The notes under the pieces were generated by a model, which worked only from the letters and a program-made list of their open reading frames with translations, ran no database searches and was not told where the DNA came from. Positions 6,855 to 59,653 of a stretch of DNA of 64,000 nt are shown here, one piece after another. Position 1 is the stretch's first letter, and each line of letters starts with the position of its first letter. The stretch comes from Escherichia coli (lineage in GTDB: Bacteria; Pseudomonadota; Gammaproteobacteria; Enterobacterales; Enterobacteriaceae), in the NCBI RefSeq assembly GCF_009931435.1, contig NZ_CP043414.1; one strand, given 5' to 3'. The position numbers and the translations under genes were made by a program.

Positions 6855-10754
<3,900 letters not shown>

Positions 10755-10793
10755 TTAATTCGCCCCTCGCCTTACGGAAAGGGGCGTTGGTTA

Positions 10794-12098
10794 TTAGAAC
10801 TGCGATTCTTCGGTGGAGCCGGTCAGCGCGGTGACTGAAGACGTGCCGCCCTGAATAATGGTCGTCACTTTATCGAAATAACCTGTACCCACTTCCTGCT
10901 GGTGAGATACGAAGGTATAGCCATCTTTCGCGGCGGCAAATTCCGGCTGCTGCACTTTCTCAACATAGTGCTTCATACCCTCGCCCTGGGCGTAGGCGTT
11001 TGCCAGGTCAAACATGTTGAACCACATGCTGTGGATGCCTGCCAGGGTGATGAACTGGAACTTGTAGCCCATATCCGACAGCTGCTGCTGGAAGCTGGCA
11101 ATAGTTTTGTCGTCGAGGTTTTTCTGCCAGTTGAAGGACGGCGAGCAGTTATAAGCCAGCAGTTTGCCTGGATATTTCGCGTGGATAGCTTCCGCAAAGC
11201 GACGCGCCAGTTCCAGGTCTGGCGTGGAGGTTTCACACCATACCAGGTCAGCATATGGCGCATACGCCAGGCCACGGCTGATCGCTTGTTCAATACCTGC
11301 ATGAGTACGGAAGAAGCCTTCGCTGGTACGCTCGCCGGTAATAAATTCGCTGTCATACGGGTCGCAATCGGAGGTGATCAGATCCGCCGCATCGGCATCG
11401 GTACGTGCAACCAGCAGGGTTGGAACGCCCGTCACGTCAGCTGCCAGACGCGCCGCGACCAGTTTCTGAATAGCTTCCTGAGTTGGCACCAAAACTTTGC
11501 CGCCCATGTGACCGCATTTCTTCACTGATGCCAGCTGATCTTCGAAGTGAACTGCCGCTGCACCGGCTTCAATCATCGCTTTCATCAGTTCAAAGGCATT
11601 CAGGACACCGCCAAAACCGGCTTCCGCATCGGCAACGATCGGCAGGAAGTAATCGACATAGCGCGGATCGCCCGGCTCAATGCCCGCGGACCATTGGATC
11701 TGATCCGCACGGCGGAAGGTGTTGTTGATCCGCTCCACCACAGCTGGCACCGAGTTTGCCGGATAGAGCGACTGATCCGGATACATGCTGGCCGCCAGGT
11801 TAGCGTCCGCCGCTACCTGCCATCCCGACAGATAGACTGCTTCAATACCCGCTTTCGCCTGTTGCAGCGCCTGACCGCCAGTCAGTGCACCGAGGCTGTT
11901 GATGTAGCCTTTTTTCGACTCGCCATGCAGCAGACGCCACATTTTCGCCGCGCCCAGTTGCGCCAGCGTGCATTCAGGATTGACTGAACCGCGTAATTTC
12001 ACCACATCTTCCGCGCTGTATGGGCGAGTAATGCCTTCCCAACGCGGTTGAGTCCACTCTTTCTGTAATTCTTCAATTTGTTGTGTACGGGTTTTCAT
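10794..12098 (-). CDS. aceA: Isocitrate lyase AceA (434 aa)
   Basis: ORF 10794..12113 trimmed to [15 protein letters not shown] start; contains KKCGH active-site motif. Confidence 0.97.
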
Positions 12099-12127
12099 GT
12101 GCAGATGCTCCATAGTTATATGGTGGT

Positions 12128-13729
12128 TTACGCTAACAGGCGGTAGCCTGGCAGGGTCAGGAAATCTATTAACTCATCGGAAGTGGTGATCTGTTCCATC
12201 AAGCGTGCGGCATCGTCAAAACGCCCCTGGGAGAAACGTTCTTCGCCCAGTTCGCTGGCAATGACTTTCATCTCTTCGCCCAGCATCTGGCGGAACAAGG
12301 CTTTGGTCACCGGTTTGCCATTGCTCAACGTTTTTTGATGATGGATCCACTGCCAGATTGAGGTACGGGAAATTTCAGCCGTCGCCGCATCTTCCATCAG
12401 GCCATAAATCGGCACACAGCCGTTGCCAGAGATCCACGCTTCGATGTACTGCACAGCCACGCGAATGTTGGCGCGCATACCTTCTTCGGTGCGTTCACCA
12501 TCACAAGGTGCCAGCAGCTGATCGGCAGTAATCGGCGCGTCTTGTTCGCGCATCACTTCAAGCTGATTTTTACGGGAGCCGAGAATGTCGTTGAATACCG
12601 CCATTGCCGTATCCGCAAGGCCTGGGTGGGCAATCCATGTGCCATCGTGACCGTTGTTGGCTTCCAGCGCTTTATCCGCTTTTACTTTGTTCAGCACCTG
12701 GTTATTGCGCTCTTCATCTTTGCTCGGAATAAACGCTGCCATGCCGCCCATCGCAAATGCGCCGCGTTTATGGCAGGTTTTGATTAACAGGCGTGAATAG
12801 GCATTAAGGAACGGTTTATCCATCGTCACAGCCTGTCTGTCTGGCAGGACGCGATCGGGATAGTTTTTCAACGTTTTGATATAGCTGAAGATGTAATCCC
12901 AACGACCGCAGTTCAGACCAACAATATGGTCACGCAGCGCGTGAAGGATTTCATCCATCTGGAACACGGCGGGCAGCGTTTCAATCAGCAACGTCGCCTT
13001 GATGGTGCCGCGCGCCAGATTAAAGCGATCTTCTGCATAGCTGAAGACTTCGCTCCACCAGGCCGCTTCCTGCCAGGACTGGGTTTTTGGCAGATAGAAA
13101 TAGGGGCCACTGCCTTTTGCCAGTAAGGCCTGGTAGTTGTGAAAGAAGTAGAGCGCAAAATCAAACAGGCTGCCAGGGATTGCCTCACCACGCCAGGTGA
13201 CATGTTTTTCCGGCAAGTGCAGACCGCGTACCCGACAAATCAACACCGCTGGATTGGGCTTGAGCTGGTAAATTTTGCCTGCTTCATTGGTGTAACTGAT
13301 GGTGCCATTAACTGCATCGCGCAGGTTAATTTGCCCATCGATCACTTTGTTCCAGTCCGGGGCCAGTGAATCCTCAAAATCGGCCATAAAGACTTTCACA
13401 TTGGCGTTGAGCGCGTTGATCACCATCTTGCGCTCTACGGGTCCGGTAATCTCTACCCGACGATCTTCTAAGTCCGCAGGAATACCACGAATTTTCCAGT
13501 CAACATCACGAATGGAAGCTGTTTCCGAAATAAAATCAGGCAATGTTCCGTTATCGATATCCTGCTGCTGCTGAATGCGCGCTGCCAGAAGTTTATTGCG
13601 TTGTGGCGTAAAATGCGTCACCAGCTCAGTCAGAAACTCTACCGCTTCGGCAGTAAGAATTTGCTTCTCCTGCTCGCCATACGGCCTTGTGAAAACCAGT
13701 TCATCGGTTGTTGTTGCCTGTTCAGTCAT
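12128..13729 (-). CDS. aceB: Malate synthase A AceB (533 aa)
   Basis: ORF 12128..13747 trimmed to [13 protein letters not shown] start; first gene of aceBAK. Confidence 0.96.
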
Positions 13730-13825
13730 CGTGCTGCTCCTCGTCATGGATCCGAAAACTTCCCCACTGTGAACGAAGGATCGTTGTGTGCTTTTCGTTC
13801 AGCACAACTAAGACTACTCATTTAA

Positions 13826-13856
13826 AATGCAAAATCAAAAACAATTTCCATTTTAA
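13826..13856 (-). promoter_or_regulatory. aceBAK promoter region with candidate IclR operator
   Basis: Minus-strand AAAATGGAAATTGTTTTTGATTTTGCATTTT about 100 bp upstream of aceB, containing a TGGAAAT half-site in an AT-rich promoter context. Confidence 0.4.
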
Positions 13857-13929
13857 ATAAAAATACATGTTAACCTATTGATAACAATATGAATAAAATT
13901 TATTCACCTCTTGAGGTGTGTTTCGGAAA

Positions 13930-13953
13930 TAAAAAAGGCACCCGAAGGTGCCT
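13930..13953 (-). terminator. Rho-independent terminator downstream of metA
   Basis: Minus-strand hairpin GGCACC-TTCG-GGTGCC followed by TTTTTT, about 45 nt after the metA stop. Confidence 0.7.
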
Positions 13954-13997
13954 GAGGTAAGGTGCTGAATCGCTTAACGATCGACTATCATAGAAGA

Positions 13998-14927
13998 TTA
14001 ATCCAACGTTGGATTCATGTGCCGTAGATCGTATGGCGTGATCTGGTAGACGTAATAGTTGAGCCAGTTGGTAAACAGCAAATTACCGTGACTACGCCAG
14101 CTCGCTCGCGGTGTATTTTGCGGATCATTATGCGGGAAATAGTTATACGGTACATCCGGGTCTAGTCCGGCTTCCACATCGCGGAAAAATTCCTGCGCCA
14201 GCGTATGTGCGTCGTATTCCGGATGCCCCGTCACAAAGGCAATGCGCTTATCTTTGCTGGCAAACAGATATGCATCCCCTTCTTCTGTCTCCGCCAGAAT
14301 TTCCAGATCGGTATAATCACGAATCAACGCTGCCGGAAAGTCAGCATAGCGCGAATGCGGTGCCAGGAATGAATCATCAAAGCCACGCGTCAGAAGCGCA
14401 TGAGGATGGAGAATATGATGCTCGTAAACGCCAGATAGTTTGTCGGTGCGGGTTTGCTTAGGAATGCCGTAGAGGATATTGAGCGCGGCCTGGACCGCCC
14501 AACAGACAAACAGCGTCGAGGTGACGTGATCTTTCGACCACTCCAGCACCTGTTTGATCTGCGGCCAGTAAGCGACATCATTAAACTCCACCAGGCCCAG
14601 CGGCGCGCCGGTAACTATCAGACCGTCAAAGTTTTGTTCCTGAATATCTTCAAAGTTACAGTAGAAGTTATTCAGATGCTCTGCGGGCGTGTTGCGCGAT
14701 TCACGGGAATCGATGCGCAACAGCTGAATATCGACCTGCAAAGGTGAGTTTGAAAGCAGGCGCAAAAACTGATTTTCAGTTTCGATCTTCTTCGGCATCA
14801 GGTTAAGGATAAGCACCTTTAGCGGACGAATTTCCTGACCAGACGCGCGAGAAGTTGTCATCACAAAGACGTTTTCTTCACGCAAGAAATTGACGGCGGG
14901 TAGCTCGTCCGGCACACGAATCGGCAT
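13998..14927 (-). CDS. metA: Homoserine O-succinyltransferase MetA (309 aa)
   Basis: Full-length [24 protein letters not shown]...; standalone gene. Confidence 0.97.
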
Positions 14928-14946
14928 AACCTGATTACCTCACTAC

Positions 14947-14978
14947 ATACGCTTATACGTTTAGACATCCAGATAGCT
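14947..14978. promoter_or_regulatory. Four tandem 8-bp MetJ boxes (metA operator)
   Basis: ATACGCTT ATACGTTT AGACATCC AGATAGCT on plus strand, each a 5-6/8 match to the palindromic met-box AGACGTCT, 20-50 bp upstream of the metA start. Confidence 0.6.
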
Positions 14979-15083
14979 GAAGATAACCAGAAAATTTGCC
15001 AATGTCGAGCCTGCATGTTGAAGGTGAGAAAGTTTCAAGGAAAAGGCTACGTTAGAATATAAGAATGACGAAAAGGAGAGAAA

Positions 15084-15527
15084 ATGGTTATTAGTATTCG
15101 CCGCTCACGGCATGAGGAAGGGGAAGAACTGGTTGCGATTTGGTGCCGTTCTGTCGATGCCACTCACGATTTTTTATCAGCAGAGTATCGGGCCGAGCTG
15201 GAAGAGCTGGTGCGTTCCTTCCTGCCGGAAGCGCCGTTGTGGGTCGCGGTTAATGAGCGGGATCGGCCGGTTGGGTTTATGTTGTTAAGTGGGCAGCATA
15301 TGGATGCGCTGTTTATCGATCCTGATGTGCGCGGCTGCGGCGTGGGTCGGATGCTGGTGGAACATGCGCTCTCGATAGCACCGGAACTGACAACCAATGT
15401 TAATGAGCAAAATGCCCGGGCGGTAGGGTTCTATAAGAAGTTGGGATTTAAGGTTACGGGACGCTCTGAGGTGGACGATTTGGGGAAACCGTATCCGTTG
15501 CTGAATCTGGCGTATGTGGAGGCGTAG
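15084..15527 (+). CDS. yjaB: GNAT-family N-acetyltransferase YjaB (147 aa)
   Basis: ORF with acetyl-CoA binding motif (RGCGVGRMLVEHAL); GGAG SD upstream. Confidence 0.9.
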   Translation: MVISIRRSRHEEGEELVAIWCRSVDATHDFLSAEYRAELEELVRSFLPEAPLWVAVNERDRPVGFMLLSGQHMDALFIDPDVRGCGVGRMLVEHALSIAPELTTNVNEQNARAVGFYKKLGFKVTGRSEVDDLGKPYPLLNLAYVEA

Positions 15528-15590
15528 GCAATTTTTTTCTCATCCCGGTGAGCTGAACTTCAGGTTTCGTACCCACCAATGGTGACATGA

Positions 15591-15974
15591 TTATTTCTGC
15601 TTAAGCATTGCCATGACCGCACTATCACTGAGCACCACTGATTGCGCATGGATGTGGAAATGGCGATATTTCATTAACGTTGCACCAGCGACCACTTCAT
15701 GAAGAATGCGTTCCTCAACCTGTGACAAACCGCCCTCATTCATTTCCAGCGCGCTCACAACAATATCCATACGTTTTGCTGGCAAAAAAGAGTACCAGGG
15801 TGAACGTGGGTGGAGTTGCAAAACAAGATCTTGCAGAACTTTTTCTGCAACAAAGAAATTGGCGATTAACAGGCGCTGGTTACTGAAGGCAGCCTCTCCT
15901 GACACTTCACGTTTGCTTTCAAGATCGCGAACAGTAATTTGATTACGACGAATTTGGATATACAGAACTGACAT
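15591..15974 (-). CDS. yjaA: Stress-induced protein YjaA (127 aa)
   Basis: ORF 15591..16010 trimmed to ATG giving MSVLYIQIRRNQITV; lies immediately behind the rrnE terminator. Confidence 0.85.
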   Translation of the reverse strand: MSVLYIQIRRNQITVRDLESKREVSGEAAFSNQRLLIANFFVAEKVLQDLVLQLHPRSPWYSFLPAKRMDIVVSALEMNEGGLSQVEERILHEVVAGATLMKYRHFHIHAQSVVLSDSAVMAMLKQK

Positions 15975-16007
15975 GAGATTCCCTTCATCATGCAAATAAT
16001 TGATATG

Positions 16008-16040
16008 CAAAAAGGCCCAGTCTTCCGACTGGGCCTTCTG
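16008..16040 (-). terminator. rrnE terminator (hairpin plus U-tract) just 3' of 5S
   Basis: Minus-strand AGAAGGCCCAGTCGGAAGACTGGGCCTTTTTGC, about 10 nt after the 5S 3' end. Confidence 0.85.
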
Positions 16041-16049
16041 CTTAATTTG

Positions 16050-16169
16050 ATGCCTGGCAGTTCCCTACTCTCGCATGGGGAGACCCCACACTACCATCGG
16101 CGCTACGGCGTTTCACTTCTGAGTTCGGCATGGGGTCAGGTGGGACCACCGCGCTAAGGCCGCCAGGCA
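16050..16169 (-). rRNA. rrfE: 5S rRNA (rrnE operon)
   Basis: 120-nt reverse-complement match to E. coli 5S (ATGCCTGGCAGTTCCCTACTCTCGCATGGGGAGACCCC ... GGCCGCCAGGCA). Confidence 0.95.
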
Positions 16170-16262
16170 AATTCTGTTTCATCAGACCGCTTCTGCGTTC
16201 TGATTTAATCTGTATCAGGCTGAAAATCTTCTCTCAATCCGCCAAAACATCTTCGGCGTTGT

Positions 16263-19167
<2,905 letters not shown>

Positions 19168-19360
19168 TCACAACCCGAAGATGTTTCTTGCGATTCATCA
19201 TCGTGTTGCGAAAATTTGAGAGACTCACGAACAACTTTCGTTGTTCAGTGTTTCAATTTTCAGCTTGATCCAGATTTTTAAAGAGCAAATATCTCAAACG
19301 TCACCCGAAGATGAGTTTTGAGATATTAAGGCAGGTGACTTTCACTCACAAACCAGCAAG

Positions 19361-19436
19361 TGGCGTCCCCTAGGGGATTCGAACCCCTGTTACCGCCGTG
19401 AAAGGGCGGTGTCCTGGGCCTCTAGACGAAGGGGAC
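19361..19436 (-). tRNA. gltV: tRNA-Glu(UUC) in the 16S-23S spacer
   Basis: Exact reverse complement of GTCCCCTTCGTCTAGAGGCCCAGGACACCGCCCTTTCACGGCGGTAACAGGGGTTCGAATCCCCTAGGGGACGCCA. Confidence 0.97.
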
Positions 19437-19521
19437 GTATCAGTCTGCTTCGCAAGACGCCTTGCTTTTCACTTTCTATCAGACAATCTGTGTGAGCACT
19501 GCAAAGTACGCTTCTTTAAGG

Positions 19522-21063
<1,542 letters not shown>

Positions 21064-21194
21064 AAAAGTTTGATGCTCAAAGAATTAAACTTCGTAATGA
21101 ATTACGTGTTCACTCTTGAGACTTGGTATTCATTTTTCGTCTTGCGACGTTAAGAATCCGTATCTTCGAGTGCCCACACAGATTGTCTGATAAA

Positions 21195-21207
21195 TTGTTA
21201 AAGAGCA
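21195..21207 (-). promoter_or_regulatory. rrn leader boxA antitermination element (rrnE)
   Basis: Minus-strand TGCTCTTTAACAA in the 16S leader. Confidence 0.8.
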
Positions 21208-21247
21208 GTTGCGACGCGGCTTTCAACTCACTGTCGCGAGGTGGCGT

Positions 21248-21275
21248 ATATTACGCTTTCCTCTTTCAGAGTCAA
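21248..21275 (-). promoter_or_regulatory. rrnE P2 promoter
   Basis: Minus strand TTGACT -16 bp- TAATAT. Confidence 0.75.
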
Positions 21276-21357
21276 CCCTGAATTTCAGGATTTTTCTCTT
21301 CAACCGAACCGGCTGTTTGTGTGAAGTGATTCACATCCGCCGTGTCGATGGAGGCGC

Positions 21358-21385
21358 ATTATAGGGAGTTCTCCGCAGGCCGCAA
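21358..21385 (-). promoter_or_regulatory. rrnE P1 promoter
   Basis: Minus strand TTGCGG -16 bp- TATAAT followed by GC-rich discriminator (GCGCC), A/T-rich UP-like sequence upstream. Confidence 0.7.
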
Positions 21386-21556
21386 TAGAAAAATTGCAGA
21401 AAAATGACTGACTGCTGCATTCCCCAGCAAAACCCCGCTTTATACCTTTTTACGCACAGAGTTATCCACAATCATCAATGTAATTTCTGTATTTTTCCCA
21501 CGGTAAACACTGTCAAAATTGTGATCACCATTGAAAGAGAAAAATTCGCGAGCGTT

Positions 21557-21572
21557 GCGCAAACGTTTTCGT
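21557..21572. promoter_or_regulatory. PurR operator at the purHD promoter
   Basis: GCGCAAACGTTTTCGT, close match to the pur-box ACGCAAACGTTTTCNT, immediately followed by TACAAT (-10). Confidence 0.75.
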
Positions 21573-21679
21573 TACAATGCGGGCGAAAAATAAGGATGCC
21601 CCGTTAGGGGCGTTAGCTGAGTTTTTCGCGAAAAATTCAGCTAACGCTCTCTGTAATAGTCAAATCCAGGGGATTTACC

Positions 21680-23269
21680 ATGCAACAACGTCGTCCAGTC
21701 CGCCGCGCTCTGCTCAGTGTTTCTGACAAAGCCGGTATCGTCGAATTCGCCCAGGCACTTTCCGCACGCGGTGTGGAGCTGCTGTCTACAGGGGGCACTG
21801 CTCGTCTGTTAGCAGAAAAGGGTCTGCCGGTAACCGAAGTTTCCGATTACACCGGTTTCCCGGAGATGATGGATGGACGCGTGAAGACCCTGCATCCAAA
21901 AGTGCATGGTGGCATTCTGGGCCGTCGCGGCCAGGACGATGCCGTTATGGAAGAACATCAGATCCAACCTATCGATATGGTGGTTGTTAACCTCTATCCG
22001 TTCGCCCAGACCGTGGCCCGTGAAGGTTGCTCTCTGGAAGATGCGGTTGAGAACATCGATATCGGTGGTCCAACGATGGTGCGCTCCGCCGCCAAGAACC
22101 ATAAAGATGTCGCAATCGTGGTGAAGAGCAGCGACTACGACGCCATTATTAAAGAGATGGATGCCAACGAAGGATCGCTGACGCTTGCAACCCGTTTCGA
22201 TCTCGCTATCAAAGCCTTCGAACACACCGCCGCCTACGACAGCATGATTGCCAACTACTTCGGCAGCATGGTTCCGGCTTATCACGGTGAAAGCAAAGAG
22301 GCCGCCGGTCGCTTCCCGCGTACGCTGAACCTGAACTTCATTAAGAAGCAGGATATGCGCTACGGCGAGAACAGCCACCAGCAGGCTGCCTTCTATATAG
22401 AAGAGAATGTGAAAGAAGCCTCCGTTGCCACCGCAACCCAGGTTCAGGGTAAAGCCCTCTCTTATAACAACATCGCCGATACCGATGCGGCGCTGGAGTG
22501 CGTGAAAGAGTTCGCCGAGCCGGCATGTGTGATTGTGAAGCACGCCAACCCTTGCGGTGTGGCTATCGGCAATTCCATTCTTGATGCTTACGATCGCGCG
22601 TATAAAACCGACCCCACCTCGGCGTTCGGCGGCATTATCGCCTTTAACCGCGAGCTGGATGCTGAAACCGCACAGGCCATCATTTCTCGTCAGTTTGTCG
22701 AAGTGATTATTGCGCCGTCCGCCAGCGAAGAAGCGTTGAAAATCACCGCCGCTAAACAGAACGTACGTGTCCTGACCTGCGGTCAGTGGGCCGAGCGTGT
22801 TCCAGGCCTTGATTTCAAACGCGTGAACGGTGGTCTGCTGGTTCAGGATCGCGATCTGGGGATGGTCGGTGCGGAAGAACTGCGCGTCGTCACCAAACGT
22901 CAGCCGACTGAACAGGAACTGCGTGATGCACTGTTCTGCTGGAAAGTGGCGAAGTTCGTGAAATCCAACGCTATCGTCTATGCCAAAAACAATATGACCA
23001 TCGGTATTGGCGCGGGCCAGATGAGCCGCGTGTACTCCGCGAAAATCGCCGGTATTAAAGCTGCCGATGAAGGCCTGGAAGTGAAAGGTTCCTCGATGGC
23101 TTCTGACGCGTTCTTCCCGTTCCGCGACGGTATTGATGCCGCCGCCGCTGCGGGCGTGACCTGCGTAATCCAGCCTGGCGGTTCTATCCGTGATGACGAA
23201 GTAATTGCCGCCGCCGACGAGCACGGTATTGCGATGCTCTTCACCGACATGCGCCACTTCCGCCATTAA
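21680..23269 (+). CDS. purH: Bifunctional AICAR transformylase / IMP cyclohydrolase PurH (529 aa)
   Basis: Full-length [30 protein letters not shown]... Confidence 0.97.
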
Positions 23270-23280
23270 TGGAGCGACAG

Positions 23281-24570
23281 ATGAAAGTATTAGTCATTGG
23301 TAACGGCGGGCGCGAGCACGCGCTGGCCTGGAAAGCGGCCCAGTCGCCGCTGGTTGAGACTGTTTTTGTTGCTCCGGGTAACGCAGGTACTGCGTTGGAA
23401 CCCACGCTGCAAAACGTCGCTATCGGCGTGACCGATATCCCGGCGCTGCTGGATTTCGCACAAAACGAAAAGATCGATCTGACCATCGTCGGCCCGGAAG
23501 CACCGCTGGTGAAAGGCGTGGTCGATACTTTCCGCGCCGCCGGGCTGAAAATCTTCGGCCCAACCGCAGGTGCCGCGCAACTTGAAGGCTCGAAAGCGTT
23601 TACCAAGGATTTCCTGGCCCGCCATAAGATCCCTACGGCGGAATACCAGAACTTCACCGAGGTCGAACCTGCGCTGGCGTATCTGCGTGAAAAAGGCGCG
23701 CCCATCGTTATTAAAGCTGACGGTCTGGCTGCCGGGAAAGGCGTTATCGTGGCGATGACGCTGGAAGAAGCGGAAGCGGCTGTTCACGATATGCTGGCGG
23801 GCAACGCTTTTGGCGACGCGGGTCATCGCATCGTTATCGAAGAGTTCCTCGATGGCGAAGAAGCGAGCTTTATCGTGATGGTGGACGGCGAGCATGTGCT
23901 GCCGATGGCCACCAGTCAGGACCACAAACGCGTAGGTGATAAAGATACCGGGCCGAACACGGGCGGGATGGGCGCTTACTCCCCTGCACCAGTGGTGACC
24001 GATGAGGTTCATCAGCGCACCATGGAACGTATCATCTGGCCAACCGTGAAAGGCATGGCAGCGGAAGGCAGCACCTACACCGGTTTTCTCTACGCGGGCC
24101 TGATGATCGACAAACAGGGCAATCCGAAGGTTATCGAATTTAACTGCCGCTTTGGCGATCCGGAAACCCAGCCGATTATGCTACGCATGAAGTCCGATCT
24201 GGTTGAGCTTTGCCTGGCGGCCTGTGAAGGTACGCTTGACGAGAAAACGTCCGAGTGGGATGAACGCGCTTCTCTCGGCGTGGTGATGGCTGCGGGTGGA
24301 TATCCGGGCGATTACCGCACCGGCGATGTGATCCACGGCCTGCCGCTGGAAGAAGCGTCTGACGGCAAAGTGTTCCACGCGGGCACAAAACTGGCGGATG
24401 ACGAGCAGGTGGTAACCAGCGGCGGGCGCGTACTGTGCGTCACCGCGCTGGGTCATACCGTGGCAGAAGCGCAGAAACGCGCTTATGCCTTAATGACCAA
24501 TATCCATTGGGACGATTGCTTCTGCCGGAAGGATATCGGCTGGCGCGCCATCGAACGCGAGCAGAACTAA
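23281..24570 (+). CDS. purD: Phosphoribosylamine-glycine ligase PurD (429 aa)
   Basis: ORF 23269..24570 trimmed to MKVLVIGNGGREHALAWK start; ATP-grasp fold; coupled to purH. Confidence 0.96.
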   Translation: MKVLVIGNGGREHALAWKAAQSPLVETVFVAPGNAGTALEPTLQNVAIGVTDIPALLDFAQNEKIDLTIVGPEAPLVKGVVDTFRAAGLKIFGPTAGAAQLEGSKAFTKDFLARHKIPTAEYQNFTEVEPALAYLREKGAPIVIKADGLAAGKGVIVAMTLEEAEAAVHDMLAGNAFGDAGHRIVIEEFLDGEEASFIVMVDGEHVLPMATSQDHKRVGDKDTGPNTGGMGAYSPAPVVTDEVHQRTMERIIWPTVKGMAAEGSTYTGFLYAGLMIDKQGNPKVIEFNCRFGDPETQPIMLRMKSDLVELCLAACEGTLDEKTSEWDERASLGVVMAAGGYPGDYRTGDVIHGLPLEEASDGKVFHAGTKLADDEQVVTSGGRVLCVTALGHTVAEAQKRAYALMTNIHWDDCFCRKDIGWRAIEREQN

Positions 24571-25892
24571 CGCGACAGTTTTGCCAATAGCGTTTTGCGC
24601 GTAATCCCTAACTGACGGGCGGCTTCGGTTTTGTTGCCGCCCGTTTTCTCCAGCGCCGCCAGAATCACTTCTTTTTCGACTTCCACCAGCGGCTGAATAT
24701 CCTGACTTTGCACCAGCGGGATCGGCGTACTGGCAATCGCCAGCGGCAGCTCGCGTTCGGAAATATATTCCCCGGTCAGCAGCACCACCGCCCGTTCCAC
24801 CGCGTTTTCCAGTTCACGAATATTTCCCGGCCAGTCGTAGTGAATCAGCAGATCCATCGCCTGGGGCGTAAACCCTTTTACCGCCTTGCGATTGCGTTCG
24901 GCAAAGCGCTGCAGAAAATGACCAGCCAGCAGAGGAATATCTTCCCGCCGCTGACGCAGCGGCGGTACTTCAATCGCCACCACATTCAGGCGATAGTAGA
25001 GATCCTGGCGAAAACGCCCGGCATTCACCTCAGCGGCAAGATCGCGATGAGTCGCCGCAATCAGCCGGACATCAACCGAGATAGTCTGATTGCTGCCGAC
25101 ACGCTGAACTTCGCGCTCCTGAATCGCACGCAGCAGACGAACCTGCATCATCGGCGAGATATCGCCAATTTCATCGAGAAACAGCGTGCCGCCGTCCGCC
25201 TCAACAAAGCGCCCTTCCCGCCGTTTGTCGGCTCCGGTAAACGCCCCTTTTTCGTGACCGAACAATTCAGATTCCAGTAAGGATTCGTTGAGTGCCGCAC
25301 AGTTGAGCGTTACCAGCGGCTTTTCACTCCGTGCGCTACTGGCGTGAATCGCCCTGGCGACCAGCTCTTTACCGGTGCCGGAATCGCCGTGGATCAGCAC
25401 CGTGGCTTCCGATGGCGCGACGAGGGCAATTTCACTGAGCAGGTGCTGCATCGCCGGGCTTTTACCGACCATACCGAACTGGCTGGCAGACACCGCAGGC
25501 GTTTCAGCATCAACACTGTGCGTATGCGCAAGCGCCTTTTCCAGGGTTGCCTGCAGGTTATCGAAATCCAGCGGCTTGATGAGATAATCCAGCGCCCCGG
25601 TTTTCAACGCCTCTACCGCCGTCTCGACGCTGGAGTACGCGGTCATAATCAGTACCGGAATTGCCGGATTTAACGCTTTGATCTCTTTCAGCGTGGCGAT
25701 GCCATCCATCTCTGCCATTCGCACATCACAAAGCACAAGATCAAAAACCTGTTCCCGCACTTGCTCCAGCGCCTGTCGCCCGCTGTTCGCCAGCGCGACG
25801 TTATAGCCCCAGCCGCGCAGCAATGCCTGCAAGATAGTGCAGTGGCTAATGTCATCATCCACCACCAGAATATCGATATTATCGTGCGTCAT
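24567..25892 (-). CDS. zraR: Sigma54-dependent response regulator ZraR (441 aa)
   Basis: Receiver domain, AAA+ sigma54-activator domain (GESGTGKE, GAFTGA) and C-terminal HTH. Confidence 0.96.
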
Positions 25893-27265
25893 CCTTGTGG
25901 GTCCTTACGCGTAATATTGACCGGAAGCCAGAGGGTGAACGTTGCACCTTTCCCCTCCTGGCTTACGACCTGAATTGTACCACCGTGTTGTTCAACAATA
26001 TTATGCACAACCGCCAGCCCCAGTCCGGTGCCTTCGGCTTTGGTGGTGAAGTACGGGGTGAAGATGGCTTCAAGCTGATCCGCCGCAATTCCCTTACCGC
26101 TGTCGGTTACGCTTATTTTAACGCCTGCGCTGCTTTCGTTGGCCGTCACGCTAATCACGCCATGCTGACCAATAGCCTGAATAGCATTGAGATAGAGATT
26201 CAACAGGACCTGAGTCAGTCGGTCCGGATCGGCCTGTATCTCCGGCAATGCGTCGTTGGCGGTAAAGCGTAATTGGATCTCCCTACTGTTTGCATCCTGG
26301 CTTACCAGTTGTAATGAGTGGTTAATCAGCGTGTTGAGATCCACCGCCTTCAAAGCAAGATGCGTTGGCTTAACCAGCTCCAGCAGCTCGCTTACCACGC
26401 GGTTTAAACGGTCGGCTTCTTTCGCCATCACCTGCGCCAATTGATGCGCTTCTCCTCCTGCTGGTGCGCGTTCGGCAAAATATTTCGCCAGCCCTTTAAT
26501 CGAGGAAAGCGGGTTACGGATTTCATGGGCGACGCCTGCGGCCAGATGTCCCAGCGCCACCAGCTTCTCTTTGCGCTTCATTTCATCCTGTAACAGCTGG
26601 CGCGAGCGAAGATAGCGGCGATACCAGAAGAATGACAACACGCTTGCCAGCAAGACCGTCGCCAGGGCGAAGAGGATAATCAGGGTGTTTCTCTGCTCAC
26701 GCTCTTCGGCACTCACAATGTTACTGGCGTCGAAAGCGATAAAAATTGCTTGTGGTGTCGCGGCATACTGCTGCATATGGCGCATCCGGTGCATTCCAGC
26801 AGCAAACATCGGTTGAAACTGGCGATAAATTTCCAGAACAGGCTCGCCGTCTGCGCTATCGATCCGCCGCCACGCTTCTTCGTCTCCCGGATGTAACTGC
26901 TGCATTTCCTGCGGGGAATAAAGCTGTTTTCCCACCATGCCGGAGTTGCTATGCATCACGATTGTTCCTTGTTCATCCGTGACCGCAAACCAACGCACTC
27001 CTGGCTGCCCAGCCATTTCTTCCAGTAAAGCCTGCTGCTGCGCATGATGCATGCGCATCCCCATACCGACGCGCGAGCCGGATTCGAGAGCGCGGATAAG
27101 TACACTGCCTTTTTCCAGCAGAGTTTGTCTGGCGGCGGCAGTCTCGCGCCCATAATCGCGAATCACGGTCACTGCAAACAACCCCACCAGTCCAACAATG
27201 ACTACGGGAAGGATCGCGCTTAACCATTTTGCTAAGGCATCTTTTGATCGCTGCATAAAACGCAT
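25889..27265 (-). CDS. zraS: Sensor histidine kinase ZraS
   Basis: 458-aa ORF with two TM segments, H-box (HEIRNPL) and HATPase domain; 4-bp overlap with zraR. Confidence 0.93.
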   Translation of the reverse strand: MRFMQRSKDALAKWLSAILPVVIVGLVGLFAVTVIRDYGRETAAARQTLLEKGSVLIRALESGSRVGMGMRMHHAQQQALLEEMAGQPGVRWFAVTDEQGTIVMHSNSGMVGKQLYSPQEMQQLHPGDEEAWRRIDSADGEPVLEIYRQFQPMFAAGMHRMRHMQQYAATPQAIFIAFDASNIVSAEEREQRNTLIILFALATVLLASVLSFFWYRRYLRSRQLLQDEMKRKEKLVALGHLAAGVAHEIRNPLSSIKGLAKYFAERAPAGGEAHQLAQVMAKEADRLNRVVSELLELVKPTHLALKAVDLNTLINHSLQLVSQDANSREIQLRFTANDALPEIQADPDRLTQVLLNLYLNAIQAIGQHGVISVTANESSAGVKISVTDSGKGIAADQLEAIFTPYFTTKAEGTGLGLAVVHNIVEQHGGTIQVVSQEGKGATFTLWLPVNITRKDPQG

Positions 27266-32904: not shown

Positions 32905-33075
32905 AATTTCTTGTCGGAGTGCCTTAACTGGCTGAGACCGTTTATTCGGGATCCGCGGAACCTGATCAGGCTAATACCTGCGAAGGGAACAAGAGTTAAT
33001 CTGCTATCGCATCGCCTTTGCGGCGATCGTCTCTTGCTTCATCCGTCGTCTGACAAGCCACGTCCTTAACTTTTT
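32905..33075 (+). promoter_or_regulatory. TPP (thi-box) riboswitch in the thiC leader
   Basis: Contains CTGAGA ... ACCTGATCAGGCTAATACCTGCGAAGGGAAC thi-box consensus; ends at the thiC SD/ATG. Confidence 0.7.
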
Positions 33076-47259: not shown

Positions 47260-47290
47260 CTTACAGCGCAAAAAGGCTGGTGACTAAAAA
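47260..47290 (-). terminator. rplL-rpoB intergenic attenuator
   Basis: Minus-strand GGCTGGTGAC-TTTTTA-GTCACCAGCC followed by TTTTT, in the 319-bp rplL-rpoB spacer. Confidence 0.75.
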
Positions 47291-47339
47291 GTCACCAGCC
47301 ATCAGCCTGATTTCTCAGGCTGCAACCGGAAGGGTTGGC

Positions 47340-52435: not shown

Positions 52436-52511
52436 TGGTGCTGATAGGCAGATTCGAACTGCCGACCTCACCCTTACCAAGGGTGCGCTCTACCAACTGA
52501 GCTATATCAGC
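52436..52511 (-). tRNA. thrT: tRNA-Thr(GGU)
   Basis: Reverse complement of GCTGATATAGCTCAGTTGGTAGAGCGCACCCTTGGTAAGGGTGAGGTCGGCAGTTCGAATCTGCCTATCAGCACCA. Confidence 0.95.
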
Positions 52512-52517
52512 ACATCT

Positions 52518-52592
<75 letters not shown>

Positions 52593-52708
52593 ATCCTGGA
52601 ACTCGGCTACCTGATTTTCATTCTGCACTGAATATCGAGAGAAGCTCTCTTTATTCGAGCCGGTAAGCGAACTTATCGTCTCGGGCTACGCCATCGCGTG
52701 GCCGAAAT

Positions 52709-52793
<85 letters not shown>

Positions 52794-52801
52794 GGACTTG
52801 A

Positions 52802-52877
<76 letters not shown>

Positions 52878-55183: not shown

Positions 55184-56208
55184 GAAATTGTCTCCACTGC
55201 GCTCACTTCACCTGATGCGCCAATAAAGCGGACTTCAGGCTCAAGCCAGACATTAAATTTTTCACCAACTTTCTGTCTTACATGATGCGCCAGCTGTACA
55301 ACATCTTCGCTTTTTGCGTTGTGCTCATTTATGAGAACCAGCGCCTGTTGACGGTGTACCGCAGCACCACCAATTTGCGTCCCTTTAAGCTGGCACTGAT
55401 CGATAAGCCAACCTGCTGCCAATTTTACTGAACCGTCTGTCTGGGGATAATGTGGTGCTGTTGGAAATTGTGCCAACAACGCGTTAGCCGCTTCGGCAGA
55501 TACAACAGGGTTTTTGAAGAAACTACCGGCATTGCCATTCACTTTTGGATCAGGGAGTTTGGTGGTGCGCATATGACACACCGCATCAAATACTTGCTGT
55601 GGCGTTACGGTTGTAGGATCCAGACGAGTTAAGTCACCATACGTTAGTACAGGTTGCCACTCTTTTGGCAGGCGCAGACCTACGGCTACAATGGCGAAGC
55701 GGTCCTGGTATTCATGTTTAAAAATACTGTCGCGATAGCCAAAACGGCACTCTTTGGCAGTTAAGCGCACTTGCTTGCCTGTCGCCAGTTCAACACAGTC
55801 AACATAAGCGCAAACTCGCTGTAATTCTACGCCATAAGCACCAATATTCTGGATAGGTGATGAGCCGACACAACCAGGAATTAACGCCAGATTTTCCAGA
55901 CCTGGCATACCTTCCTGCAAAGTGTATTTTACCAAGCGATGCCAGTTTTCTCCGGCTCCTACATGTAAATACCACGCATCAGGTTCATCATGAATTTCGA
56001 TACCTTTGATCCGGTTGATGATCACCGTGCCGCGATAGTCTTCCAGAAAAAGTACATTACTTCCTTCACCCAGAATAAGAACGGGTTGCCCTTCTGCGGT
56101 TGCATGCTGCCAGGCATTGAGTAATTGTTGTTCGTCTTCGGCACATACAATGTGCTGAGCATTATGATCAATGCCAAATGTGTTCCAGGGTTTTAAGGAG
56201 TGGTTCAT
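55180..56208 (-). CDS. murB: UDP-N-acetylenolpyruvoylglucosamine reductase MurB (342 aa)
   Basis: FAD-binding fold; 4-bp overlap with birA; starts about 135 nt after rrfB. Confidence 0.97.
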
Positions 56209-56300
56209 AGCTGCTTTCCTGATGCAAAAACGAGGCTAGTTTACCGTATCTGTGGGGGGATGGCTTGTAGATATGACGACAGGAAGAGTTTGTAGAAACG

Positions 56301-56333
56301 CAAAAAGGCCCAGTCTTCCGACTGGGCCTTCTG
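56301..56333 (-). terminator. rrnB terminator (single hairpin, same sequence as the rrnE terminator)
   Basis: Minus-strand AGAAGGCCCAGTCGGAAGACTGGGCCTTTTTGCGTTTCTAC directly after 5S. Confidence 0.8.
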
Positions 56334-56342
56334 CTTAATTTG

Positions 56343-56462
56343 ATGCCTGGCAGTTCCCTACTCTCGCATGGGGAGACCCCACACTACCATCGGCGCTACG
56401 GCGTTTCACTTCTGAGTTCGGCATGGGGTCAGGTGGGACCACCGCGCTAAGGCCGCCAGGCA
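56343..56462 (-). rRNA. rrfB: 5S rRNA (rrnB operon)
   Basis: Same length and sequence as the rrfE copy, 40,293 bp away. Confidence 0.95.
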
Positions 56463-59460: not shown

Positions 59461-59653
59461 TCACAACCCGAAGATGTTTCTTGCGATTCATCATCGTGTT
59501 GCGAAAATTTGAGAGACTCACGAACAACTTTCGTTGTTCAGTGTTTCAATTTTCAGCTTGATCCAGATTTTTAAAGAGCAAATATCTCAAACGTCACCCG
59601 AAGATGAGTTTTGAGATATTAAGGCAGGTGACTTTCACTCACAAACCAGCAAG

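What the first reader, a model, noticed from the sequence alone, without database searches (positions are those of the whole stretch)
15975..16049. yjaA starts about 35 bp behind the rrnE terminator, leaving no room for an independent promoter
The 5S 3' end (16050), the terminator hairpin (16012-16037) and the yjaA ATG (15972-15974) are packed into 75 bp, so any yjaA promoter must overlap the terminator. Expression may depend on terminator read-through from the very strongly transcribed rrn operon, or on a promoter embedded in the terminator.
Basis: inference. Interest (0 to 1): 0.2.

Follow-up and report, generated by a model that had tools for sequence, protein, structure and literature searches.

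The report
yjaA packed behind rrnE terminator
The small gene yjaA really does start only about 35 bases after the stop signal of a ribosomal RNA operon, an old and ordinary arrangement in enteric bacteria, and how the gene gets transcribed is still not known.

Summary
Mature 5S ends at 16050, the terminator hairpin is 16037-16012, the T-run is 16013-16009, the SD is 15986-15981 and the yjaA ATG is 15974-15972. Only 34 nt separate the T-run from the ATG, so any promoter that keeps the SD in the mRNA must overlap the terminator.

No convincing promoter is visible. The best sigma-70 candidate (AAGACT-17-AATTAT) scores 3.3, which 22% of random zones in this window reach; the rrn promoters score 9.8-14.

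The 5S-terminator-yjaA order is ancient. It is co-directional in at least 10 genera of Enterobacterales. Six genera keep only 30-36 nt, with different hairpins and nothing conserved except the SD block. Providencia and Pseudomonas homologues are not next to rRNA.

My best guess (0.42) is leak-through from rrnE transcripts. An overlapping weak promoter is nearly as likely (0.35). No transcript data could be found.

Two side findings:
- The window's hairpin is a 29-nt patch identical to its own rrnB trailer. That combination is found in 0 of 5,426 complete E. coli genomes, while 2,589 carry the K-12 hairpin with yjaA.
- YjaA looks like a free-standing MreB-like half-domain.

Interest is low.

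The parts
16050..16169 (-). 5S rRNA gene (rrfE), mature 120-nt form; the last gene of the rrnE operon
   Evidence: Rfam RF00001 at 16052-16167, 93.2 bits. The mature ends were read from the sequence against the known E. coli 5S termini. RefSeq relatives annotate rrf at the same place.
16038..16049 (-). 5S 3' trailer (CAAATTAAGCAG); by analogy with 9S RNA it holds the 3' processing site
   Evidence: Sequence. It is identical to the window's rrnB trailer. The processing role is inferred from established knowledge of RNase E cleavage of 9S RNA and was not tested.
16012..16037 (-). Intrinsic terminator hairpin: 11-bp stem (9 G+C-rich core pairs) with a GGAA loop
   Evidence: Fold (z = -3.99). Stem-loop energy -18.8 kcal/mol. 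Same hairpin behind the window's rrnB 5S. It differs at 14 positions from the hairpin of all compared relatives.
16009..16013 (-). T-run of the terminator (5 T; 2 of them pair in the stem); also the right-hand end of the patch shared with rrnB
15975..16008 (-). Locus-specific 34-nt spacer (GCATATCAATTATTTGCATGATGAAGGGAATCTC); the yjaA leader and ribosome-binding region
   Evidence: Identical in MG1655, ST131, SF-166, 2020CK-00188, MFDS1022581 and E. whittamii. One C-to-T change in strain 2017-02-2CC.
15981..15986 (-). Shine-Dalgarno GAAGGG, 6 nt before the ATG
   Evidence: Sequence. An AAGGR block at the same distance is present in the yjaA loci of nearly all genera examined (weak in Franconibacter), including those with long leaders.
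15996..16024 (-). Best sigma-70-like candidate that would keep the SD in the transcript: -35 AAGACT (16024-16019, in the hairpin loop and 3' arm), 17-bp spacer, -10 AATTAT (16001-15996). Not better than chance
   Evidence: PWM score 3.3. 22% of equally sized zones in the window and 41% of spacer shuffles score as high, while the rrn promoters score 9.8-14. The tool's consensus scan found no minus-strand promoter.
15987..15992 (-). CATGAT hexamer, conserved as CATGAT/CATAAT/AATGAT/TGTGAT in the compact-spacer genera. It could be part of the ribosome-binding region, one arm of a weak hairpin over the AUG, or a -10-like element giving a 5-8-nt leader
15591..15974 (-). yjaA coding sequence (127 aa plus stop)
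   Evidence: dN/dS against MG1655 is about 0.29, on small counts.
15084..15527 (+). yjaB (GNAT acetyltransferase), convergent with yjaA; it bounds the unit downstream
   Evidence: Pfam PF13673, PF13508 and PF00583. RefSeq annotation.

Best explanation
The 75 bp are the 3' tail of the rrnE operon followed directly by the ribosome-binding region of yjaA. In order they hold a 12-nt 5S trailer, a strong intrinsic terminator (hairpin plus 5 U), and 34 nt of locus-specific leader with an SD.

yjaA has no separable promoter. I think its mRNA comes mainly from the small fraction of the very numerous rrnE transcripts that fail to stop at the terminator. Those read-through transcripts would be cut from the rRNA precursor at the 5S 3' processing site. 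That would leave a yjaA mRNA whose 5' end carries the terminator stem-loop, translated from the SD and ATG at 15974. A weak promoter overlapping the terminator may add to this, especially under stress.

- **Shown here:** the anatomy, the distances, the lack of a recognisable or conserved promoter, and the age and co-orientation of the arrangement.
- **Inferred, not shown:** that read-through occurs at a useful level, and the processing step.
For: - **Geometry.** There are 34 nt from T-run to ATG, and an SD conserved family-wide must be in the mRNA.
- **No promoter above chance.** The consensus scan finds none on the minus strand. The best PWM candidate scores 3.3, at the 78th percentile of random zones, against 9.8-14 for the rrn promoters in the same window.
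- **Compact layout recurs.** It is found in Escherichia, UBA5654, Phytobacter, two Superficieibacter, Kosakonia sp. S29 and S. enterica subsp. salamae, with T-run to ATG of 30-36 nt. These carry at least 6 different hairpins. Upstream of the SD block there is no shared -10 or -35. Phytobacter and Kosakonia S29 have no hexamer with A at position 2 in the zone where a -10 would have to lie.
- **Co-orientation.** yjaA is co-directional with the 5S gene in every rrn-adjacent locus.
- **Hairpin swap.** In the window the whole hairpin, where any -35 would sit, has been replaced while yjaA and its leader are unchanged.
- **Flux (established knowledge).** Bremer and Dennis give tens of rrn initiations per minute per operon. 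At that rate even 1-5% leak equals a typical mRNA promoter.
Against: - The terminator looks strong: -15 to -19 kcal/mol with 5-6 U.
- By established knowledge (Albrechtsen et al. 1990), the rrn antitermination system acts on Rho-dependent terminators, not intrinsic ones.
- yjaA is reported as induced by H2O2, Cd and acid and up in at least 3 of 5 stress classes (PMC3050900, PMC8765455, PMC9501238). rrn transcription usually falls under such stress. This is ambiguous, though, because translation inhibitors and cold raise it.
- Kosakonia quasisacchari keeps an intact yjaA 43 nt behind two tandem terminators.
- Several relatives have TGnTAnnnT (extended -10-like) abutting the T-run, or decent promoters downstream of the terminator.
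- Providencia and Pseudomonas homologues clearly have their own upstream regions.
- Many real E. coli promoters score no better than chance on a PWM.
Confidence: 0.42

Rival explanations
1. yjaA has its own weak, possibly stress-responsive promoter that physically overlaps the terminator. The -10 would lie in the AT-rich stretch 16005-15996 (TATCAA or AATTAT). The start site would be near 15993-15988, giving a 15-19-nt leader with the SD. There would be little or no -35 contribution. Dense rrnE traffic ending 15-20 bp upstream could occlude it during fast growth and release it under stress.
For: - Stress induction is reported.
- The leader geometry fits.
- The AT-rich segment is invariant in all Escherichia compared.
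- Relatives show that an element abutting the terminator is plausible: TGCTATTGT or TGCTATTCT follows TTTTT directly in Kosakonia and Superficieibacter 1612, and K. quasisacchari has two terminators in front.
- The family has its own promoters elsewhere.
Against: - The PWM score is at chance level.
- TATCAA lacks the critical last T, and AATTAT lacks the first T.
- Escherichia has no TG extended -10 motif.
- The -35 position lies in a hairpin that differs between the window and all relatives and between genera.
- Nothing corresponding is conserved in Phytobacter or Kosakonia S29.
- Invariance within Escherichia is uninformative, because the CDS third positions differ by only 0-6%.
- No sigma-factor site or TSS for yjaA or b4011 appears in the supplements searched, though the files may be truncated.
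Confidence: 0.35
2. The conserved CATGAT/CATAAT hexamer (15992-15987) is the -10 of a promoter that starts about 7 nt downstream. It would give a 5-8-nt leader without an SD, translated like a near-leaderless mRNA.
For: It is the only non-SD element shared by the compact-spacer genera. A at position 2 and T at position 6 are kept in 5 of 7 species, and UBA5654 has CATAAT, a 5/6 match.
Against: - It would leave the AAGGR block unexplained. That block is conserved at SD distance in nearly all yjaA loci examined, including those with long leaders.
- No -35 or TG motif is present.
- By established knowledge, such short leaders are rare and poorly translated in E. coli.
- S. salamae has TGTGAT, with G at position 2.
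Confidence: 0.1
3. yjaA is barely expressed here. It would be a dispensable, decaying gene tolerated behind the terminator, so no promoter is needed.
For: About half of complete E. coli genomes lack it. Many truncated variants exist in the protein database. P. zantedeschiae has only a C-terminal remnant.
Against: - The ORF is intact with a conserved SD in at least 10 genera.
- 22 columns are invariant from Escherichia to Pseudomonas.
- dN/dS is about 0.29.
- Phenotypes and induction are reported in K-12 (Lee et al. 2010, cited in PMC3050900).
Confidence: 0.06

Closest known systems
The rrnE-yjaA junction of E. coli K-12 MG1655 (rrfE 4213040-4213159, yjaA 4213234-4213617)
   Same: Same locus, same order and strand, a 74-nt versus 75-nt spacer, an identical 37 nt before the ATG, and the same SD and start.
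   Different: The trailer and hairpin differ at 14 positions: CCCCGGTCCATAAGGCCGGGG plus 6 T in K-12 and all relatives, against GGCCCAGTCGGAAGACTGGGCC plus 5 T here. yjaA differs at 11 nt.
The rrnB terminator region upstream of murB, in this same window and (from knowledge) the T1-T2 cluster of K-12
   Same: The 5S trailer and hairpin are identical up to TTTTTGC (window about 56344-56300). A co-directional protein gene follows.
   Different: murB starts 93 nt after the T-run, so there is room for a separate promoter. In strain E09 and in P. zantedeschiae the rrn trailer in front of the yjaB/yjaA position has two terminators with a 5S fragment between them. The window has one.
Partial (leaky) intrinsic terminators inside transcription units, such as the rplL-rpoB attenuator, and the distal tRNA genes after the 5S gene of rrnC, rrnD and rrnH (established knowledge; PMC5179076 for the distal tRNAs)
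   Same: A downstream co-directional gene lies directly behind a terminator-like hairpin or behind 5S, with no obvious promoter. Its expression is fed by upstream transcription.
   Different: Read-through is measured for those cases and is not measured here. PMC5179076 states that the distal tRNA genes appear to have their own promoters. The rrnE hairpin looks like a full-strength terminator, not an attenuator.
Extended -10 (TGnTATAAT) promoters, which need no -35 element
   Same: In Kosakonia oryzendophytica and K. quasisacchari (TGCTATTGT), Superficieibacter 1612 (TGCTATTCT) and UBA3516 (TGCTATGGT), the TG is supplied by the terminator's own TTTTTGC tail.
   Different: Escherichia reads TGCATATCA at that position, so the motif is not met in the window.

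Membership tests
Intrinsic (Rho-independent) terminator | Stable G+C-rich stem-loop | tested here: met
   A 9-bp G+C core stem with a GGAA loop, -18.8 kcal/mol. The context fold has z = -3.99.
Intrinsic (Rho-independent) terminator | Run of U immediately 3' of the stem | tested here: met
   TTTTT at 16013-16009, 5 T in the first 8 nt. The tool's own scan did not list it.
Intrinsic (Rho-independent) terminator | Transcripts actually end there, and with what efficiency | not testable with these tools
   No 3'-end data for rrfE or yjaA in the supplements searched.
rrnE operon of Escherichia | 16S - tRNA-Glu - 23S - 5S order, flanked by purH/purD upstream and yjaA-yjaB-metA downstream | tested here: met
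   tRNA-Glu, anticodon ttc; flanking genes.
rrnE operon of Escherichia | rrnE-specific trailer and hairpin as in other Escherichia | tested here: not met
   0 of 5,426 genomes carry the window's trailer joined to yjaA, while 2,589 carry the K-12 type. The window's trailer equals its own rrnB trailer.
Sigma-70 promoter overlapping the terminator | -10 hexamer with A at position 2 and T at position 6, placed so that the SD is transcribed | tested here: inconclusive
   AATTAT at 16001-15996 is a 4/6 match and keeps both key bases, but such hexamers are common in AT-rich DNA.
Sigma-70 promoter overlapping the terminator | -35 hexamer at 16-18 bp, with a combined score above background | tested here: not met
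   AAGACT is a 3/6 match. The total score of 3.3 is reached by 22% of random zones, and the consensus scan found none.
Sigma-70 promoter overlapping the terminator | Elements conserved in relatives with the same layout | tested here: not met
   The hairpins and the post-T-run sequence differ between genera, and the best candidates differ in every genus.
Sigma-70 promoter overlapping the terminator | Mapped primary 5' end | not testable with these tools
   No TSS for yjaA was found in the held papers or supplements.
Extended -10 promoter | TG one base upstream of a TAnnnT hexamer | tested here: not met
   The window reads TGCATATCA. The motif is met in four relatives only.
Read-through (leaky-terminator) transcription unit | Downstream gene co-directional and immediately adjacent, in all relatives | tested here: met
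   Co-directional in every rrn-adjacent locus.
Read-through (leaky-terminator) transcription unit | Continuous transcripts across the terminator; downstream expression depends on the upstream promoter | not testable with these tools
   This needs RNA data or promoter deletions.
YjaA family (NCBIfam NF041448) | Full-length match above the curated cut-off | tested here: met
   175.6 bits against a cut-off of 125, covering residues 1-125.
Actin-like (ASKHA) ATPase superfamily, MreB branch (for the YjaA protein) | Two RNase-H-like halves forming a nucleotide cleft | tested here: not met
   [not shown]

The most novel reading that the evidence does not exclude
yjaA expression is mechanically coupled to rRNA transcription through the terminator it abuts. 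The coupling could be calibrated leak-through, or re-use of the polymerases released 20 bp upstream. YjaA, a free-standing MreB-like half-domain, would then be made in proportion to (or, through occlusion, inversely to) rrnE activity. This coupling would be why the 5S-terminator-yjaA order has been kept co-directional across Enterobacterales.
Probability: 0.12. Interest if true: 0.5.

Novelty: new member of a known kind. Interest (0 to 1): 0.2.

Why it matters
This matters little for general biology. The layout is the standard, annotated one of E. coli K-12, and genes fed by leaky terminators or by promoters overlapping terminators are known kinds.

It has some practical value in three ways.
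- yjaA is one of the three Clermont phylotyping markers, yet its transcription appears never to have been mapped in anything I could access.
- The junction is a clean natural test-bed for how well an rrn terminator insulates a downstream gene.
- The window offers a natural hairpin replacement in front of an unchanged gene.

Tried and rejected
- **Upstream in-frame TTG at 16010 as the start (139-aa ORF).** Rejected. It lies in the T-run. The N-terminal extension is not conserved. Spacer lengths differ by non-multiples of 3 between genera, and Phytobacter has in-frame stops upstream.
- **Consensus promoter scan.** It found only a plus-strand, antisense hit at 15973-16000, at chance level (1 found, 1.0 expected).
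- **Sigma-54 -24/-12 reading of TGG...TTGCA across the hairpin and T-run.** Checked by eye; the spacing is wrong (9-10 nt instead of 12).
- **Within-Escherichia conservation of the 37-nt spacer.** It shows 0 differences, but CDS third positions differ by only 0-6%, so this is not informative.
- **Small hairpin CAUGA/UCAUG over the start codon.** It is present in 6 of 7 compact species, and S. salamae keeps it through wobble pairs. Energies are only -3.6 to -8.1 kcal/mol, and only 2 of 7 beat 95% of shuffles. I treat it as weak.
- **Literature.** I ran 7 full-text searches and opened 15 papers. The supplements of Adams 2021, Yan 2018, Mendoza-Vargas 2009, Cho 2014 and Sastry 2019 have no entry for yjaA, b4011 or rrfE. 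The Conway 2014 and Term-seq 2022 supplements are not held. Thomason 2015 and Lee 2010 are not held.
- **My first reading that the yjaA presence/absence junction lies at the T-run.** Corrected. In E. coli the K-12-type hairpin travels with yjaA, and only the window has the junction at the T-run.

Full report
**1. The observation.**
The region is on the minus strand. Rfam finds a complete rrn operon: 16S at 19522-21063, a tRNA at 19364-19436, 23S at 16263-19167 and 5S at 16052-16167. ARAGORN identifies the tRNA as tRNA-Glu.

The flanks are purH/purD/zraSR on one side and yjaA-yjaB-metA-aceBAK on the other. This is the rrnE position of E. coli K-12, where rrfE is 4213040-4213159 and yjaA is 4213234-4213617.

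The remaining features are:
- the hairpin AAGGCCCAGTC-GGAA-GACTGGGCCTT at 16037-16012
- five T at 16013-16009
- GAAGGG at 15986-15981
- the ATG at 15974-15972

The 96-nt context folds far better than shuffles (z = -3.99, 0 of 200). The stem-loop alone is -18.8 kcal/mol.

The ORF is a full-length member of NCBIfam NF041448, 'YjaA family stress response protein' (175.6 bits, cut-off 125). Its annotated start is supported by the conserved N-terminus in an alignment from Escherichia to Pseudomonas. All three coordinates and the 75-bp packing are therefore correct.

**2. Is there room for a promoter, and is one visible?**
The T-run ends 34 nt before the ATG. An AAGGR block sits 6-8 nt before the ATG in the yjaA loci of nearly all genera examined (weak in Franconibacter), including those with long leaders. 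It therefore functions as an SD and must be in the mRNA.

That forces any start site to about 15988 or further upstream. The -10 would then be at about 15996 or further, and the -35 would fall in the hairpin.

The tool's consensus scan finds no minus-strand promoter in 15400-16400. A position-weight scoring of my own used approximate published sigma-70 base frequencies. Its best SD-retaining candidate is AAGACT-17-AATTAT, scoring 3.3.
- 22% of equally sized zones across the window score as high.
- 41% of shuffles of the spacer score as high.
- The rrnE and rrnB promoters in the same window score 9.8-14.

Absence of a good score does not exclude a weak promoter.

**3. Comparative evidence.**
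YjaA homologues were found by protein search and by a scan of one genome per species.

In Enterobacterales the gene lies directly behind a 5S gene and is co-directional with it. This holds in Escherichia, E. whittamii, MAG UBA5654, Phytobacter, Superficieibacter (2 species), Kosakonia (3-4), Franconibacter, Enterobacter sp., MAG UBA3516, Samsonia, Pectobacterium (several) and Brenneria. In most draft assemblies the contig simply breaks in the rrn repeat 100-500 nt upstream.

Providencia and Pseudomonas homologues are not near rRNA. In Pseudomonas the gene is divergent from a TauE gene and is followed after 3 nt by a TANGO2-family gene.

Spacer lengths from T-run to ATG fall into three groups:
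- 30-36 nt in Escherichia, UBA5654, Phytobacter, both Superficieibacter, Kosakonia S29 and S. salamae
- 40-51 nt in four others
- 79-150 nt in Pectobacterium, Franconibacter and Brenneria

In the compact group the hairpins are all different. The sequence between T-run and SD is not alignable, apart from a CATGAT-like hexamer next to the SD. In the long group there are better promoter candidates wholly downstream of the terminator, such as TTGTAC-16-AATAAT and TTTTCT-18-TACAAT, scoring 7.5-9.1.

Four species have TGnTAnnnT directly after the T-run, with the TG coming from the terminator's TTTTTGC. K. quasisacchari has two tandem terminators in front of an intact yjaA.

So the family can clearly use its own promoters, sometimes abutting the terminator. 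In the compact clade that includes Escherichia, nothing promoter-like is conserved.

**4. The hairpin in this window is unusual.**
The alignment with relatives shows that the window differs from its nearest relative at this locus (MFDS1022581) at 14 positions in 16042-16014. By contrast there is one difference in 17800-16043 and none in 16013-15532.

The replaced patch is identical to the trailer of the window's own rrnB operon up to TTTTTGC. Among 5,426 complete E. coli genomes:
- the K-12-type trailer plus yjaA start is present in 2,589, once per genome
- the window's combination is present in none

The strain closest on the other flank (2020CK-00188, 99.9%), MG1655, B2 strains and E. whittamii all have the K-12 type.

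This is either a short gene-conversion tract ending in 7 nt of microhomology or a polishing artefact in a repeat. I cannot tell which. If it is real, it shows that the segment where any -35 would lie can be swapped without touching yjaA.

**5. Mechanism.**
I could find no transcript mapping for this junction.

The published hints are that yjaA responds to H2O2, Cd and acid (Lee et al. 2010, cited in PMC3050900). It is listed as acid-stress-induced (PMC8765455). It is also among the genes up in at least three of five stress classes (PMC9501238, Table 4). That speaks for regulation of its own. However, two of those classes (translation-inhibiting antibiotics and cold) raise rrn transcription, so the evidence is ambiguous.

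Weighing this against the lack of any conserved promoter in the compact clade and the very high flux of rrn transcription, I give:
- 0.42 to read-through as the main source
- 0.35 to a weak overlapping promoter
- 0.10 to a CATGAT -10 with a very short leader
- 0.06 to near-silence

The two leading ideas are not exclusive.

**6. What YjaA is.**
A functional link to ribosomes would make the adjacency more interesting, so I modelled the protein (pLDDT 80, pTM 0.77).
- Foldseek gave only weak generic hits, including uS11.
- YjaA 35-98 aligns to E. coli MreB 79-133 at 38% identity (pairwise E = 8e-8; profile probability 95%).

YjaA is thus a free-standing relative of one half of the actin-like fold. 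Nothing points to rRNA, so the adjacency is more simply explained as inherited synteny.

**7. Verdict.**
The arrangement is the ordinary, long-annotated one. Interest is low (0.2).

Noticed in passing
window 16014-16042 (compare 56300-56344): The rrnE trailer and hairpin are a 29-nt patch with 14 differences from every relative. The patch is identical to the window's own rrnB trailer and ends in the T-run. The combination with yjaA occurs in 0 of 5,426 complete E. coli genomes, while 2,589 have the K-12-type hairpin, which exists only at yjaA. It is either a gene-conversion tract or an assembly/polishing artefact.
   Followed up: yes
[not shown]
   Followed up: yes
loci L006, L008, L010, L015-L030, L056; L012, L014, L031-L055: The co-directional 5S-terminator-yjaA adjacency is conserved from Escherichia to Pectobacterium and Brenneria. 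Providencia and Pseudomonas homologues are elsewhere, and in Pseudomonas the gene forms a two-gene unit with a TANGO2-family gene.
   Followed up: yes
L020, L021, L024, L030 (first about 60 nt after the T-run): TGCTATTGT, TGCTATTCT or TGCTATGGT directly follows the terminator's T-run. This is an extended -10-like motif whose TG belongs to the terminator tail. K. quasisacchari (L021) has two tandem terminators before yjaA.
   Followed up: partly
window 15560-16049 compared with L003, L004: About half of complete E. coli genomes lack yjaA (2,579-2,590 of 5,426 have it). The yjaA-negative strains have an rrnB-like hairpin, or a T1-5S fragment-T2 arrangement, followed by a REP-like sequence up to the end of yjaB. 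The difference is therefore a segment replacement that includes the hairpin, not a simple deletion.
   Followed up: partly
window 15967-15996: A small stem, CAUGA(U)/(A)UCAUG, would sequester the start codon with the SD in the loop. It recurs in 6 of 7 compact-spacer species, and S. salamae keeps it through G-U pairs. It is only marginally more stable than shuffles.
   Followed up: partly
L015 (Escherichia whittamii) 145-528: E. whittamii yjaA differs from MG1655 yjaA at 1 of 384 nt, although the window's E. coli-like allele differs at 11. This suggests recent exchange of the segment between species.
   Followed up: no
window 56206-56345: The window's rrnB has a single terminator hairpin 93 nt before the murB ATG. 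It does not have the two-terminator arrangement with a 5S fragment seen in strain E09 and in P. zantedeschiae, both at the rrn operon in front of yjaB/yjaA.
   Followed up: partly
window 9000-27000: The flanks are at most about 98.4% identical to almost all complete E. coli genomes, and only strain 2020CK-00188 reaches 99.9%, on one side. The window therefore comes from a poorly sampled Escherichia lineage with a mosaic history.
   Followed up: partly
window 15866-15991 and 15591-16010 (minus strand): There is an out-of-frame 41-aa ORF starting at the ATGATG inside the CATGAT motif, and an in-frame TTG at 16010 that extends yjaA to 139 aa. Both are probably meaningless.
   Followed up: partly
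window 32905-33005 (+), 47274-47335 (-), 52439-52877 (-), 19175-19283 and 59468-59576 (-): Other Rfam hits in the window are a TPP riboswitch, a P26-family match, a four-tRNA cluster, and StyR-44 matches just upstream of both 23S genes.
   Followed up: no
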